Below are positions 3,504 to 11,119 of a DNA stretch of 13,122 bases, one piece after another. Numbering within the stretch: the first letter of the stretch is position 1; every line of letters starts with the position of its first letter. The DNA is from a virus (Duplodnaviria > Heunggongvirae > Uroviricota > Caudoviricetes). The DNA lies in IMG/VR virus record IMGVR_UViG_2526164662_000025. One strand, given 5' to 3'. The notes under the pieces were generated by a model that made no database searches, had not been told where the DNA came from, and saw only the letters and a list, made by a program, of their open reading frames with translations. The position numbers were made by a program, and so were the translations under genes.

Positions 3504-3948
3504 ATCTCACACCTCCTGGAATCCCCGCTGAAGCCATCATTAATGCGGCATCATCCACCATGACATCCGCCACATCCGCAGACGATAAAATATCGCCCCC
3601 TCCGTCCCCACCGAACCGGACGCCTCCGGCAAGTCCTGCCGCTTTCTGCATCAGCATTTTGTCCTCATCCGGCCTCTCCACCTGCTCTTCCTCATGCCGG
3701 GGGACAAGCAGACTGAAATCAGAGGGATGCATATCCGGATCGCAAAAAAACAGGCTGAGTACAGCGTACATCAGCCCGGAAAAATGCATATCCAGTTGGG
3801 TATCCTGAAAATAATGCGTGCGGTAAAAATGTCGCCAGTCGGCATATTCGGTGGATGTCATCCCGGCAAGCATGGCGCGCCAGTCAGGCCTCCCCATCTC
3901 TCGCGCCAGTCTGAGGGCAAAATTCAGCTCGCCGTCGAAGACTTTCCC
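3484..3948 (-). CDS. T: T segment of the G-T tail assembly chaperone fusion, reached by -1 programmed ribosomal frameshifting from G. The full G-T product spans 3484..4355.
   Basis: The -1 frame relative to G is open from the slippery site to a stop at 3484 and encodes ...VFDGELNFALRLAREMGRPDWRAMLAGMTSTEYADWRHFYRTHYFQDTQLDMHFSGLMYAVLSLFFCDPDMHPSDF... (ORF 3484..3897 in the track is its M-initiated part). This is the arrangement known for lambda G and G-T. Confidence 0.8.
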   Translation of the reverse strand, partial: GKVFDGELNFALRLAREMGRPDWRAMLAGMTSTEYADWRHFYRTHYFQDTQLDMHFSGLMYAVLSLFFCDPDMHPSDFSLLVPRHEEEQVERPDEDKMLMQKAAGLAGGVRFGGDGGGDILSSADVADVMVDDAALMMASAGIPGGVRYVPAGW

Positions 3949-5121: not shown

Positions 5122-5128
5122 ATCGTCC

Positions 5129-6467
<1,339 letters not shown>

Positions 6468-7371: not shown

Positions 7372-7725
7372 TTATCGTCGCCGGTTAACTGCGGGTGGTT
7401 GCCCACGGTTCAGCCAGAGATAACAACTGCCCCCGTCATCCGGAGAAACACGATCCACCCAGAACGTCTCACCATTAATGGTCAACGTGTCACCACGCCG
7501 CACGGCACGAACCGTATCCGTCCGCACAAATAATGACGGGCTGCTTCCTTCAATACGGATCCCACTACTGGCAAACCCCAGCGACTCCGGATCGTCAAAA
7601 ACCCCCTGAACTTCGCCGCCACGCTGTGCACCGGAGGTGAACTGCGCACTGATGCCCATCACTTCAACAATCGTACTGTCCACCCCGGCAAGGGCGGCAT
7701 CAAAGGCATTCTGAAAATCACGCAT
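7372..7725 (-). CDS. FII: Head-tail joining protein FII (lambda gpFII-like), about 117 aa
   Basis: MRDFQNAFDAALAGVDSTIVEVMGISAQFTSGAQRGGEVQGVFDDPESLGFASSGIRIEGSSPSLFVRTDTVRAVRRGDTLTINGETFWVDRVSPDDGGSCYLWLNRGQPPAVNRRR matches lambda gpFII. I chose the ATG at 7725 because it gives the lambda-like N-terminus; the track's upstream start at 7761 would overlap FI by 44 nt. Confidence 0.85.
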   Translation of the reverse strand: MRDFQNAFDAALAGVDSTIVEVMGISAQFTSGAQRGGEVQGVFDDPESLGFASSGIRIEGSSPSLFVRTDTVRAVRRGDTLTINGETFWVDRVSPDDGGSCYLWLNRGQPPAVNRRR

Positions 7726-8092
7726 AAACAGCCATTCCACCATCAACGTGTGTTTTTGCATCTGAGGACATAATCAGAATCACCCGACCAACATCCGCAA
7801 GCTCAACGGATTCCCCCGTTTCACCATCAACGCCACAGAGATGGAGGCAGGTCAGAACTCTGATGCGCGTTAACGCGCCGGATGTTTCCTCACGAACATC
7901 ATGAGCCGCGTTTTCCCTCTCCCGGATATCCATATTCATAACCTGTACATCATCGCCGGATGACTGCATTTCCTCTTCCCATTCTGCCACCCGCTGCGCT
8001 ATCTCTGCGGCACTCCCGGATATATCCGGCTCACGCCCCAGAATCAGGGCCAGTTCATCAAGCCGTTTCAGATTTTGCTCTTTCGTTGCCAT
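7718..8092 (-). CDS. FI: DNA packaging / head assembly protein FI (lambda gpFI-like), about 124 aa
   Basis: Sits between E and FII as in lambda and is acidic with a flexible-looking central region. The start at 8092 (MATKEQNLKRLDELALILG...) has a strong RBS (cacAGGGGGAtgatATG); the track's upstream start at 8140 has none and would overlap the terminator-like hairpin. Sequence similarity to lambda FI is weaker than for neighbouring genes. Confidence 0.75.
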   Translation of the reverse strand: MATKEQNLKRLDELALILGREPDISGSAAEIAQRVAEWEEEMQSSGDDVQVMNMDIRERENAAHDVREETSGALTRIRVLTCLHLCGVDGETGESVELADVGRVILIMSSDAKTHVDGGMAVYA

Positions 8093-8106
8093 ATCATCCC
8101 CCTGTG

Positions 8107-8135
8107 AAAAAAGACACGGGGGCATTTCGCCCCCG
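8107..8135 (-). terminator. Intrinsic-terminator-like hairpin plus U-tract between E and FI (possible attenuator)
   Basis: Minus-strand RNA after the E stop would read CGGGGGC-GAAAU-GCCCCCG (7-bp all-GC stem) then UGUC UUUUUU, followed immediately by the FI Shine-Dalgarno. Confidence 0.4.
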
Positions 8136-8143
8136 CTCACGGA

Positions 8144-9172
8144 TTATTTCACCTGTACCACCACAAACTCATCCGGGTCCGGCAACACCATCAGCGGCGC
8201 GGACTGCGTCATGGTAAATTCACGGGCGGGATCCCCTACCGTCAGCCAGTGTTTCGGATAACGGGAAGAGGCCACCACACCTTCGGACAACGCCTGCGCA
8301 TCCTGAATGGCACCATAGCAACGAATGCCCTCTGCTGCCGTATTCCCCAGGACCAGCGAGCCCTCAGGCAGATAACGTTTTTCGGTACCGTCCTCTGCCA
8401 CATAAGACGTTTTTGCCACCACAATGGCCAGATCGCCGTAATACCCTTTGAAGGACACCACCGCGCCCAGGTCTTTCACCGCTGTTTCGAGTTGCGAATT
8501 AGAGCCGCGACGGGTATCCAGTTTTTCGCGGAACAATTTAAAGCCATTCAGCAGACGCCAGACGGTACCGTCCATAATGGCAATATTCACAAGACCGCTG
8601 GCCTGGTCGCAGTAGAGGTCAAGATCATGTGTAGGATCGAACGTGTCACGATCCTGTTTTGACCACTCCTTACCACTACCCTGAGTGATGTTATTCTTCG
8701 TCGACCTGCCAAAATCGACCTCAATTTTCTCGAACTGGTCTCCTTCCATCGTGTATTTGCCATACAGCACGGCATTCACCGCCTGCATTTCTTCCACCCG
8801 GACAATGGCGTGCTCTTCCTGTTTGAGGTTATCAGTGATGATACGCAGACGACGGTAGGCCGGGTCGTTCAGCTGAGCCGGATCTTCACCGGGAAGACGC
8901 TCAACCGCCTGCTGGTAATTAAATTCGTGTTTCGGCTTGACGTAGCCCGGACGTAACACGCGGGTTTCACCACCACGATGACGCAGCACTTTTCCTTCAA
9001 CAACCGGGGAAACATAGGCCGCCACCGGCGTTTTTCCGGTAATTTTGTCCAGCATCACCTCTTCGGTATGGAAATTCACCGTACGGCGGAAAAACAGCTC
9101 CAGAAACAGCGCACGAAATTTCACTTTTTGTTCGGTATAACCGAGTAACTGGCGGGTCGTAAACAATCCCAT
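8144..9172 (-). CDS. E: Major capsid protein E (lambda gpE-like), 342 aa
   Basis: MGLFTTRQLLGYTEQKVKFRALFLELFFRR...PGYVKPKHEFNYQ...VEEMQAVNAVLYGKYTMEGD...KLDTRRGSNSQLETAVKDLG...DPAREFTMTQSAPLMVLPDPDEFVVVQVK aligns along its whole length with lambda gpE (341 aa). RBS gAAAGGAActgatttATG. Confidence 0.95.
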   Translation of the reverse strand: MGLFTTRQLLGYTEQKVKFRALFLELFFRRTVNFHTEEVMLDKITGKTPVAAYVSPVVEGKVLRHRGGETRVLRPGYVKPKHEFNYQQAVERLPGEDPAQLNDPAYRRLRIITDNLKQEEHAIVRVEEMQAVNAVLYGKYTMEGDQFEKIEVDFGRSTKNNITQGSGKEWSKQDRDTFDPTHDLDLYCDQASGLVNIAIMDGTVWRLLNGFKLFREKLDTRRGSNSQLETAVKDLGAVVSFKGYYGDLAIVVAKTSYVAEDGTEKRYLPEGSLVLGNTAAEGIRCYGAIQDAQALSEGVVASSRYPKHWLTVGDPAREFTMTQSAPLMVLPDPDEFVVVQVK

Positions 9173-9200
9173 AAATCAGTTCCTTTCATTCAGAAATCAG

Positions 9201-9222
9201 TCAGGCCACCGCGGTGGCCTGA
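9201..9222. repeat. 22-bp perfect palindrome (TCAGGCCACCG|CGGTGGCCTGA) in the D-E intergenic region; potential RNA hairpin or protein-binding site
   Basis: Perfect dyad symmetry read directly from the sequence. It lies 8 nt after the D stop and about 28 nt before the E start; no canonical U-tract follows on the transcribed strand. Confidence 0.5.
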
Positions 9223-9229
9223 TAACGTG

Positions 9230-9577
9230 TTACGGCAGCGCCGCGTGACTCAGGGCACTGCCGGCAAAGGCGTTGGCCTTTTTGTGTTCATCCACACTTT
9301 CAGGCCAGCGGATTGCCTCCGTCGCAAAGGTCCCCGACTTGTAATAGGTCAGCGCCGTCTCTGTGCCTTCAAGCGGCAGTACCAGTATGCCAACCGCACT
9401 ACCGGCTTTCTGTCCGTCCCAGACCACCAGTTTCCCGGTGGCCTCATCCAGCATCAGGGGCGTCAGTGCCGGTGTTGCCGAGGAAATCCCGCTGCTGCCT
9501 GTGGCGGTATGAGCCGGATCATTACCGGCAAAAATACGTACTTCCGCACGCTGTTCAGTGATAGTTTTCGTCACCAT
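9230..9577 (-). CDS. D: Head decoration protein D (lambda gpD-like), 115 aa
   Basis: Shares motifs with lambda gpD (DPAHTAT, TPLMLD, WDG, AVGIL, YKSGTF, AFAG) and has similar length and position. Strong RBS (caacAGGAGGtttttacaatATG). Confidence 0.9.
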   Translation of the reverse strand: MVTKTITEQRAEVRIFAGNDPAHTATGSSGISSATPALTPLMLDEATGKLVVWDGQKAGSAVGILVLPLEGTETALTYYKSGTFATEAIRWPESVDEHKKANAFAGSALSHAALP

Positions 9578-9613
9578 ATTGTAAAAACCTCCTGTTGATG
9601 GTCAGCACTGGCT

Positions 9614-10216: not shown

Positions 10217-11119
10217 AGTGCCTCCTCTGACATTACTGTTCAGCGCCGTGGCCATCACACTGATGGCATCCGACGCATTGATTAATTCATCCGCCAGCCC
10301 GGCCTCAATGCCGGACTGACCTTCAAAAACGGCGGCCTCTGTTCCCGTGACGGCATCAACAGACAGACCGGTATACATCGCTACTTTTTCAGCAAACATC
10401 CGGCGCGCCGCATCAATGCGCTGTTGCATGTCCTGGCGAACCTCTGCCGGCAACGCTTCAAACTGATTGCCATCCACCTTGTGCGCCCCTGAGTAAATCA
10501 GCGTGATATCAACACCGGCCTGCGCCAGATGACCGGCATAGCTGACATGGCTCATCATCACGCCAATGGAGCCGATACGGGATGTCTGGGTAACCAGCCG
10601 TCGGGAGCAGGCCGACGCCAGCAGCATGGCTGCAGAGCAGGCCGTGTCATTGCACAGTGCCCAGACCGGCTTCTGCTGACGGAGGCGGTAAATCATGTCA
10701 GCGCAGTCAAACGCGCCGGCGGCCTGCCCGCCCGGACTGTCAATGTCCAGCAGTACGCCCCGCACCTGGCTATCCGCCATTGCCTGCTGAAGACAGGCGA
10801 CAATGCCGTCATAGCCTGTCATTCCGGAAAATGGCCGCATACCCCCCAGCCGGTGCACCAGCGTGCCGGTCACCGGCAGTACAGCAATACCGTTCACCAC
10901 CCGGTAAACACGGGCCGGTCGTTTACCTCCGGCCATGTACTCGTCCGTTTCAGCCAGCATTCCGGGAGCATCAAACTGTACCTGCTGTTGTGGTACCGAA
11001 AGACTTGATGCCCCCATCTCGCGCCCGAGCGCGCAAAAGAAAACCCGCGCATAGGCGGGCTCCAGAAGCAGCGGTTCATTGAATGCTGCGGCAATAATGT
11101 GTGAAAGATTACGTCTCAC
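9614..11119 (-). CDS. C: Head maturation protease / scaffold protein C (lambda gpC-like, S49 SppA/ClpP-type peptidase domain plus C-terminal repeat-rich scaffold region), 501 aa
   Basis: N-terminal region (AAFNEPLLLEPAYARVFFCAL, GIAVLPVTGTL, KPVWALCND, SRRLVTQTSRIGSIGVMMSH, ITLIYSGAHKVDGN) matches lambda gpC. It lies between portal and D and overlaps the B stop. The C-terminal third contains tandem repeats. Confidence 0.9.
   Translation of the reverse strand: MRRNLSHIIAAAFNEPLLLEPAYARVFFCALGREMGASSLSVPQQQVQFDAPGMLAETDEYMAGGKRPARVYRVVNGIAVLPVTGTLVHRLGGMRPFSGMTGYDGIVACLQQAMADSQVRGVLLDIDSPGGQAAGAFDCADMIYRLRQQKPVWALCNDTACSAAMLLASACSRRLVTQTSRIGSIGVMMSHVSYAGHLAQAGVDITLIYSGAHKVDGNQFEALPAEVRQDMQQRIDAARRMFAEKVAMYTGLSVDAVTGTEAAVFEGQSGIEAGLADELINASDAISVMATALNSNVRGGTMPQLTATEAAAQENQRVMGILTCQEAKGREQLATMLAGQQGMSVEQARAILAAAAPQQPVASAQSEADRIMACEEAKGREQLAATLAAMPEMTVEKARPILAASPQADAGPSLRDQIMALDEAKGAEAQAEQLAACPGMTVESARAVLAAGSGKAEPVSASTTAMFERIMANHSPAAVQGGVPQTSADGDADVKMLMAMP
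9758..10180 (-). repeat. Three tandem, diverged ~45-aa (~140-150 bp) coding repeats in the C/Nu3 C-terminal region
   Basis: Protein repeats ENQRVMGILTCQEAKGREQLATMLAGQQGMSVEQARAILAAAAPQ / EADRIMACEEAKGREQLAATLAAMPEMTVEKARPILAASPQ / LRDQIMALDEAKGAEAQAEQLAACPGMTVESARAVLAAGSG, followed by a degenerate fourth (FERIMANHSPAAVQ). Confidence 0.65.

What the first reader, a model, noticed from the sequence alone, without database searches (positions are those of the whole stretch)
8093..8146. Terminator-like hairpin and U6 tract between major capsid gene E and FI
On the transcribed (minus) strand, 9 nt after the E stop: CGGGGGC GAAAU GCCCCCG UGUC UUUUUU, then the FI SD and ATG. A GC-rich 7-bp stem followed by a U-run inside an operon suggests partial termination or mRNA 3'-end stabilisation, which would set a high capsid (E, D) to low FI/FII/tail expression ratio. 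Late transcription in lambdoid phages is Q-antiterminated, so read-through would still occur.
Basis: seen in the sequence. Interest (0 to 1): 0.35.

Follow-up and report, generated by a model that had tools for sequence, protein, structure and literature searches.

The report
Terminator-like hairpin after phage capsid gene
A GC-rich RNA hairpin followed by a U-run sits just after the major capsid gene of this phage-21-like E. coli prophage. Almost every relative, including phage lambda, has such a hairpin at the same spot, so it is a real but ordinary terminator-type element whose exact job is still unknown.

Summary
On the minus strand the capsid gene E stops at 8146-8144. A hairpin follows (8136-8116: seven G-C pairs plus a G.U pair, loop GAAAU), then GUC, U6 (8112-8107), the FI ribosome site and the FI ATG (8092).

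Within this one sequence it is only modestly unusual: 6 of 500 shuffles of the spacer fold as well. The comparative evidence is strong. Among 111 distinct E-downstream sequences from 316 loci, all but one or two carry a compact GC-rich hairpin at this position. These comprise 45 different hairpin sequences, with compensatory changes, many UNCG/GNRA loops and a T-rich, A-poor tail.

The D-E spacer carries a second conserved hairpin. In lambda that one scores like the known terminator tR2.

So this is a selected, RNA-level, intrinsic-terminator-type element inside an operon that is transcribed under antitermination. Its role cannot be settled here. The options are 3'-end protection of capsid message, stopping polymerase that lacks Q, or partial attenuation.

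A phage L genome paper already notes such intra-operon terminators and states that "their roles are not known". Verdict: a new member of a known kind, of modest interest.

The parts
8144..9172 (-). Major capsid gene E (phage 21 gene 7), 342 aa; stop codon TAA at 8146-8144
   Evidence: ORF list. Homologues carry PF03864. 96.5% identical to phage 21, annotated there as major capsid protein.
8116..8136 (-). RNA hairpin. 5' arm GCGGGGGC (8136-8129), loop GAAAU (8128-8124), 3' arm GCCCCCGU (8123-8116). Seven G-C pairs plus a terminal G.U pair.
   Evidence: Sequence, centroid fold, terminator scan top hit, dG -16.8 kcal/mol, 6/500 spacer shuffles as stable, pairing kept in all variants.
8107..8115 (-). 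U-rich tail GUCUUUUUU (U6 at 8112-8107). The stem-proximal part is interrupted by G and C.
   Evidence: Sequence. d-score +5.9 with this tail. Across relatives the 8 nt after the stem are 59% T and 8% A.
8090..8102 (-). FI translation start: Shine-Dalgarno GGGGGA (8102-8097) and ATG (8092-8090), 23 nt after the stem
   Evidence: Sequence. RBS and CDS start annotated at the homologous position in phage 21. FI is PF14000.
7718..8092 (-). Gene FI (phage 21 ORF1), 124 aa, DNA-packaging protein
   Evidence: Pfam PF14000, E = 1.6e-16. RefSeq name gpFI.
9196..9226 (-). Companion hairpin in the D-E spacer (core UCAGGCCACC GCGG UGGCCUGA). There is no good U-tract in this phage.
   Evidence: Second-ranked site in the scan. 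dG -17.8 kcal/mol and d = -21. 0/500 spacer shuffles as stable. A hairpin is present in all full-length D-E spacers of relatives (75 distinct; the one without is a truncated 28-nt spacer).
9230..9577 (-). Head decoration gene D (phage 21 shp), 115 aa
   Evidence: Pfam PF02924, E = 4.6e-25. Phage 21 annotation.

Best explanation
This is a selected RNA element with the architecture of an intrinsic (Rho-independent) terminator. It marks the 3' boundary of the major capsid cistron inside the Q-antiterminated late operon.

What is shown:
- The hairpin, its U-rich tail and its position are conserved.
- Stem sequence drifts through compensatory changes, and loops favour extra-stable UNCG/GNRA tetraloops. 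Selection therefore acts on the transcript, not on the DNA sequence or on a protein.

What is inferred:
- During lytic growth, Q-modified polymerase reads through the site, helped by a ribosome terminating only 8 nt upstream.
- The hairpin then folds in the finished long mRNA. There it acts mainly as a barrier to 3'-to-5' exonucleases after endonucleolytic cleavage downstream, prolonging the life of the capsid (E, and with the D-E hairpin, D) message relative to FI and later genes.
- Polymerase that lacks Q (leaky or spurious transcription, for example in the lysogen) is stopped at the same site.
- Any direct attenuation of downstream transcription in the lytic cycle is probably small.

My rough split within this reading: 3'-end protection about 0.4, blocking non-Q transcription about 0.3, true partial attenuation about 0.15.
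For: - Architecture. d = +5.9, third on the sense strand.
- Positional conservation: 111 distinct downstream sequences and 45 distinct hairpins, all but one or two stable (dG -8 to -22). They start 2-29 nt after the stop and mostly end 17-24 nt before the FI ATG.
- Structure beyond chance: only 74/1760 spacer shuffles are as stable.
- Covariation: 0/500 shuffles reach the observed paired fraction or covariation score, and slid partners give 37-57% paired against 89%. The 21-like variants are 100% paired, including one G-C to A-U double change.
- RNA-level signature: 16 of 25 distinct 4-nt loops are UNCG or GNRA.
- Terminator-type tail: 59% T and 8% A. The T-run stays next to the stem when the spacer is long (L209, L207, L128, L161).
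- Enrichment: sites passing the strict terminator rule occur at 10.9 per kb in E-FI spacers and 7.1 per kb in D-E spacers, against 0.45 per kb elsewhere in the same loci.
- 109/116 distinct spacer pairs have at least one site with d > 0 flanking E.
- Lambda calibration: D-E d = +22 and E-FI d = +9.7, against the known tR2 at +25.
- The hairpin persists where the U-tract is lost, which argues for a hairpin-only, post-transcriptional role.
- Experts describe the same phenomenon and the same candidate roles (PMC8022706).
Against: - No transcript 3'-end, half-life or termination data were available. The mechanism is inferred from anatomy and conservation only.
- The U-tract of this instance is interrupted next to the stem, and its d-score is only just positive.
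- The d-score (as computed here, with ViennaRNA energies) gave no positive-scoring site in the region where lambda tR' should lie (its position recalled, not checked), so it is a rough guide.
- The single-sequence fold z-score is unremarkable.
- Lambda also has terminator-like hairpins after I and J, so the link to highly expressed capsid genes is not exclusive.
- The hairpin lies within reach of a ribosome stopped at the E stop codon. On a heavily translated message that ribosome would often melt it.
- From memory, not checked: Sampson et al. 1988 found late-gene expression ratios explained mainly by translation initiation.
- A lambda Hfq RIL-seq study reported no stable RNA from this site. 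Only PreS, LPR2 and 6S were named, and its tables were truncated in the held copy.
Confidence: 0.5

Rival explanations
1. Partial terminator that works during lytic growth. A fixed fraction of late-operon polymerases stop here, so FI, FII and tail genes receive less mRNA than D and E.
For: Terminator architecture and T-rich tails. Leaky terminators after capsid genes do step transcription down in phiX174: TJ, TF and TG block 20-40% of it. The option is proposed for phage L.
Against: Q-modified polymerase resists hairpin-dependent termination (established knowledge of lambda and phage 21 Q). In lambda a stronger site sits upstream of E although D and E are needed equimolar. Several lineages keep the hairpin but have no U-tract. 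The stem lies 2-16 nt from the stop codon in most relatives, where a terminating ribosome would hinder hairpin formation.
Confidence: 0.15
2. Translation-level element for FI. The hairpin insulates the FI ribosome-binding region from the folded 3' end of E, and stops ribosomes that finish E from sliding into and re-initiating at FI. The U-rich stretch acts as an S1-binding enhancer upstream of the FI Shine-Dalgarno sequence.
For: The distance from stem end to FI ATG is narrow, mostly 17-24 nt, which puts the hairpin at the 5' edge of a 30S footprint. In U-poor lineages the Shine-Dalgarno sequence follows the hairpin almost directly (L089, L091). The hairpin does not sequester the Shine-Dalgarno sequence.
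Against: When the spacer is long the T-run stays with the hairpin, not with the Shine-Dalgarno sequence. The tail is T-rich but A-poor, unlike generic AU-rich enhancers. A similar hairpin precedes E, which needs no uncoupling from D. The narrow spacing is also what a terminator packed against an RBS would give.
Confidence: 0.1
3. Chance palindrome or DNA-level feature (protein-binding site, cruciform, recombination joint) with no role in RNA.
For: The local sequence is GC-rich, and the 76-nt fold z-score is only -1.12. FI alleles downstream differ between otherwise near-identical loci, so a mosaic joint lies nearby.
Against: The hairpin is present at the same position with unrelated sequences in nearly all relatives, with compensatory changes. 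G.U intermediates pair only in RNA on this strand. UNCG/GNRA loops are enriched. The T-run lies on one side only, so the opposite strand is not terminator-like. Variable stems and loops exclude a sequence-specific protein site.
Confidence: 0.03

Closest known systems
Intra-operon terminators of lambdoid late operons, as described for P22-like phage L (PMC8022706)
   Same: A predicted Rho-independent terminator at the end of the procapsid/capsid gene module, inside a late operon with a single antiterminated promoter. The authors list partial termination or stopping non-antiterminated transcription as possible roles and state that the roles are not known.
   Different: It follows a different capsid gene family (P22 gp5 type, not lambda E type). 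That paper gives no conservation or covariation analysis. Here the element is traced through the E family and has a partner hairpin upstream of E.
Phage lambda's own E-FI and D-E spacer hairpins
   Same: Homologous position and same anatomy: stop codon, GC hairpin, U-rich tail, Shine-Dalgarno sequence, ATG. The lambda E-FI hairpin is also a 7-bp stem.
   Different: No sequence similarity in the stem (ATGGCCC/GGGCCAU with a UUCG loop, against CGGGGGC/GCCCCCG with GAAAU). In lambda the strong terminator-like site is D-E (d = +22) and E-FI is weaker (+9.7). In this phage E-FI is the only site with d > 0 (+5.9), and D-E has no U-tract. Neither hairpin is annotated in the lambda or phage 21 records.
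Leaky terminators after capsid genes in phiX174 (TJ, TF, TG, TH) and T7 T-phi after gene 10
   Same: Hairpin terminators placed directly after major structural genes and read through by design. This makes capsid message more abundant than downstream message. phiX174 efficiencies of 20-40% were measured by RNA-seq. The T7 case is from general knowledge.
   Different: Those phages do not use a processive antiterminator, so partial termination is the working mechanism there. Here Q should suppress it.
Intercistronic stabiliser hairpins (for example the malE-malF REP, the Rhodobacter puf operon) and lambda tI/sib retroregulation
   Same: A stable stem-loop after the more highly expressed upstream cistron blocks 3' exonucleases, giving differential segment stability within one operon. 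In lambda int regulation the outcome depends on whether polymerase is antiterminated. Both points are general knowledge, not tested here.
   Different: There is no REP consensus and no Rfam match. The stem of 7-8 bp is far too short for an RNase III site like sib. The stabilising effect is not demonstrated for this element.

Membership tests
Intrinsic (Rho-independent) terminator | GC-rich stem of about 5-14 bp with a 3-8 nt loop on the transcribed strand | tested here: met
   Seven G-C pairs plus G.U, 5-nt loop, dG -16.8 kcal/mol.
Intrinsic (Rho-independent) terminator | U-tract of about 7-9 nt immediately 3' of the stem, with U at the stem-proximal positions | tested here: inconclusive
   The tail is U-G-U-C-U6, or G-U-C-U6 after the G.U pair. 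It passes the scan rule of at least 5 T in 8 nt and gives d = +5.9, against +25 for lambda tR2. The proximal part is interrupted. A close variant (L168 type) has T5 directly at the stem.
Intrinsic (Rho-independent) terminator | Transcript 3' ends or RNA release at the U-tract, in vivo or in vitro | not testable with these tools
   No RNA data were accessible. A Term-seq data set for EHEC Sakai is described in PMC7547250.
Intercistronic 3'-exonuclease barrier (mRNA stabiliser) hairpin | Stable, conserved stem-loop between cistrons, downstream of the more highly expressed gene | tested here: met
   It lies between E (hundreds of copies per capsid, from general knowledge) and FI. It is conserved with covariation and kept even without a U-tract.
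Intercistronic 3'-exonuclease barrier (mRNA stabiliser) hairpin | Upstream mRNA segment outlives the downstream segment, and this depends on the hairpin | not testable with these tools
   Needs rifampicin-chase Northern blots or RNA-seq of stem mutants.
RNase III processing site | Roughly 20 bp or more of near-continuous duplex | tested here: not met
   The stem is 7-8 bp. The longest in the family is 11 bp.
Described RNA family (Rfam), including REP-like or sRNA families | Match to a curated covariance model | tested here: not met
   Nothing at gathering score in the window except isrC elsewhere. Only chance-level hits (E >= 3) near the site.
Hfq-binding 3'-end-derived small RNA | Stable short RNA ending at hairpin plus U-tail and bound by Hfq | not tested
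   The lambda RIL-seq study names only PreS, LPR2 and 6S. Its tables were truncated in the held copy. There are no data for this prophage.

The most novel reading that the evidence does not exclude
The two conserved hairpins that bracket E (D-E and E-FI) act as a pair of gated terminators. They are ignored by polymerase that carries Q and is closely followed by a ribosome, but stop every other polymerase. After read-through they cap a processed, unusually long-lived capsid message. In that case mRNA segment stability, and not only translation initiation, would set capsid yield, and capsid protein would be kept tightly silent in the lysogen.
Probability: 0.12. Interest if true: 0.5.

Novelty: new member of a known kind. 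Interest (0 to 1): 0.3.

Why it matters
Intra-operon terminators in antiterminated phage late operons have been noticed before, but their roles are stated to be unknown (PMC8022706). This work adds three things:
- In the lambda-E capsid family the hairpin after the capsid gene is nearly universal.
- It evolves by compensatory change.
- It is paired with a second hairpin before the capsid gene.

That makes a long-standing loose end directly testable in lambda itself with simple stem and compensatory mutants. It is also a caution for annotation and for phage engineering: these 40-60 nt spacers are not neutral linkers. It does not reveal a new kind of mechanism.

Tried and rejected
- One MAFFT alignment of all 41 hairpin variants put the clades out of register, so it was not used for pair counts. 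Two in-register sub-alignments were used instead.
- My first hairpin picker chose long, loose structures and mis-called the FI start at an in-frame ATG in the loop. It was replaced by a compact-hairpin search.
- Rfam gave nothing at the site.
- Literature look-ups failed because the papers are not held: Sampson et al. 1988, Liu et al. 2013 (lambda ribosome profiling) and the Casjens & Hendrix lambda review.
- The lambda CRISPRi, codon-adaptation, SPP1, ONT-cappable-seq and phiCbK papers had nothing on this site.
- The supplements of the lambda RIL-seq preprint are truncated and list no E-FI or D-E entry.
- Rejected readings: RNase III site (stem too short); sequence-specific protein-binding site (stems and loops vary freely); terminator for the opposite strand (no T-run on that side).
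- An N-terminally extended FI starting at GTG 8140 or the loop ATG 8125 was also rejected. The frame is open here and in lambda, but it is closed in L126, and the start codon and its Shine-Dalgarno-like G-run lie inside the hairpin.

Full report
**What is there**

The window is the head-tail part of the late operon of a phage-21-like E. coli prophage, read on the minus strand.
- It is 96.5% identical to phage 21 over 1.1 kb.
- A 201-nt piece around the finding is 100% identical in several E. coli genomes and is present in 1560 of 5426 complete genomes.
- Pfam confirms the gene order D, E, FI, FII, Z, U, then V and G.

E ends with TAA at 8146-8144. After 8 nt comes CGGGGGC (8135-8129), then the loop GAAAU, then GCCCCCG (8123-8117). 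G8136.U8116 adds an eighth pair. Next come GUC, U6 (8112-8107), CACA, the Shine-Dalgarno sequence GGGGGA (8102-8097) and the FI ATG at 8092. Phage 21 records annotate the RBS and the start at the same place, and they annotate no terminator there. One caveat applies: the U-run is 3-4 nt away from the stem.

**Is it more than chance?**

Taken alone, only moderately.
- The 76-nt context folds no better than shuffles (z = -1.12).
- The compact hairpin (dG -16.8 kcal/mol) is matched in 6 of 500 dinucleotide shuffles of the 51-nt spacer.
- It is matched in 9 of 769 51-nt tiles of the sense strand.
- It is the top terminator-like hit of the window.
- It has a slightly positive Carafa-type score, d = +5.9, third on the sense strand.

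**Related sequences**

I collected 316 loci encoding lambda-E-family capsid proteins, at 28-100% identity, from IMG/VR and from one genome per species.

Lambda itself has TAA-UC-AUGGCCC-UUCG-GGGCCAU-UGUUUCUCU...GGAGG...AUG. That is the same layout with no stem similarity.

The loci give 111 distinct E-downstream sequences and 45 distinct hairpin sequences. All but one or two have a compact GC-rich hairpin of -8 to -22 kcal/mol.
- The hairpin starts 2-29 nt after the stop (median 9).
- It mostly ends 17-24 nt before the FI start.
- Only 74 of 1760 spacer shuffles fold as well.

Covariation supports the structure.
- In an in-register alignment of 26 variants, 89% of cells pair.
- Four of the seven pairs show changes on both sides.
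- None of 500 shuffles reaches the observed covariation score.
- Sliding the 3' partner drops pairing to 37-57%.
- In the 21-like subgroup every stem substitution keeps pairing: one G-C to A-U double change and three wobble changes.

Sixteen of 25 distinct four-base loops are UNCG or GNRA. Together with the G.U intermediates, this points to selection on the RNA.

**Terminator character**

- The eight bases after the stem are 59% T and only 8% A.
- Where the spacer is long, the T-run stays with the hairpin rather than with the Shine-Dalgarno sequence.
- By the strict scan rule, terminator-like sites occur at 10.9 per kb in E-FI spacers, against 0.45 per kb in the rest of the same loci.

Some lineages keep the hairpin with no U-tract at all (L089, L091, the L238 group, L159). 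The hairpin is therefore the constant feature, and the U-tract is frequent but dispensable.

**A wider pattern**

The D-E spacer also carries a conserved hairpin: every full-length D-E spacer among 75 distinct ones has one, the single exception being a truncated 28-nt spacer.
- In this window it lies at 9226-9196. It has dG -17.8 kcal/mol, none of 500 spacer shuffles is as stable, and it has no real U-tract.
- In lambda it is a textbook-looking terminator, AAAGGCCGC-CUGU-GCGGCUUUUUUU. Its score is d = +22, close to the known tR2 at +25.
- 109 of 116 distinct spacer pairs have at least one site with d > 0 next to E.
- Lambda also has such hairpins in the I-J, J-lom and lom-orf401 spacers.

**How it most likely works**

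D and E are needed in equal numbers, yet a strong terminator-like site lies between them in lambda. The whole operon is transcribed by Q-modified, terminator-resistant polymerase (established knowledge). Efficient termination in lytic growth is therefore unlikely.

The stem also lies within reach of a ribosome stopped at the E stop codon. That would further suppress termination on translated message.

I therefore favour a conditional element. It is read through by Q-loaded polymerase. It then persists in the mRNA as a 3'-exonuclease barrier that protects capsid message. It also stops polymerase that lacks Q.

A chance or DNA-level origin is effectively excluded. All of this is inference. No 3'-end, half-life or termination data were available.

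**What is known**

- The phage L genome paper notes a predicted terminator after the procapsid module inside the late operon. [quoted passage not shown]
- The phiX174 terminators TJ, TF and TG after structural genes block only 20-40% of transcription.
- T7 T-phi, REP-type stabilisers and lambda tI/sib are further analogues, from general knowledge.
- Rfam has no family for the element.
- The lambda and phage 21 records do not annotate it.

**Verdict**

This is a real, conserved, terminator-type RNA hairpin at the capsid gene's 3' boundary. It is a new, well-documented member of a known kind whose function is still open. Interest is modest.

Noticed in passing
window 5278-5400 (+): Full-length Rfam match to the Hfq-binding small RNA isrC (RF01387, 150 bits). 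It is oriented antisense to the late operon.
   Followed up: no
window about 5122-6431: About 1.3 kb lies between tail genes U and V that is absent at this junction in lambda and phage 21. It holds isrC and small ORFs with no Pfam match (6058..6381, 5602..5901, 5155..5310, all minus strand). U is 118 aa and matches only profile positions 1-109 of 130, so its 3' end may have been replaced. A very stable hairpin (6402-6363, -25.5 kcal/mol) follows the U stop. This looks like a moron-type insertion.
   Followed up: partly
window 9196-9226 (-); L316 (lambda) 6098-6120: A conserved hairpin lies in the D-E spacer of all relatives. In lambda it is a canonical-looking terminator (d = +22, like tR2) directly upstream of the capsid gene.
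   Followed up: yes
window 3751-3778 (-) and 11044-11059 (-); L316 10279-10306 and 4487-4502: Two hairpin-plus-T-run sites inside coding sequence (gene T and gene C) score higher than the E-FI site (d = +22.5 and +10.4). They are conserved at the homologous positions of lambda.
   Followed up: no
L316 (lambda) 15466-15479, 18920-18935, 19613-19632: Terminator-like hairpins also fill the I-J, J-lom and lom-orf401 spacers of lambda. By my count from the lambda feature table, five of its six late-operon spacers longer than 30 nt therefore carry one.
   Followed up: partly
window 8123-8140 (-): GTG 8140 and ATG 8125 (in the hairpin loop, preceded by the G-run of the 5' arm) are in frame with FI. 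Lambda likewise has an in-frame ATG at the start of its hairpin. The frame is closed in other relatives, so this is probably coincidence.
   Followed up: partly
loci L092-L107 and others: Short, low-coverage contigs carry E genes with the same identity to the query as lambda's own (61%), and the two read through have lambda's E-FI spacer. They sit in assemblies of unrelated organisms (Neobacillus, Kitasatospora, Paenibacillus, Bradyrhizobium, Akkermansia MAG and others). This is most likely lambda DNA contamination or spike-in.
   Followed up: no
window 9578-9605 (-): One of only two sigma-70-like promoter matches in the window (CTGACC-16-TACAAT) lies directly upstream of the D start codon.
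   Followed up: no
window 7950-8092 (-) compared with L084, L031, L019: Loci with near-identical E genes and hairpins carry clearly different FI 5' sequences. A mosaic recombination joint therefore lies at or just after the hairpin.
   Followed up: no
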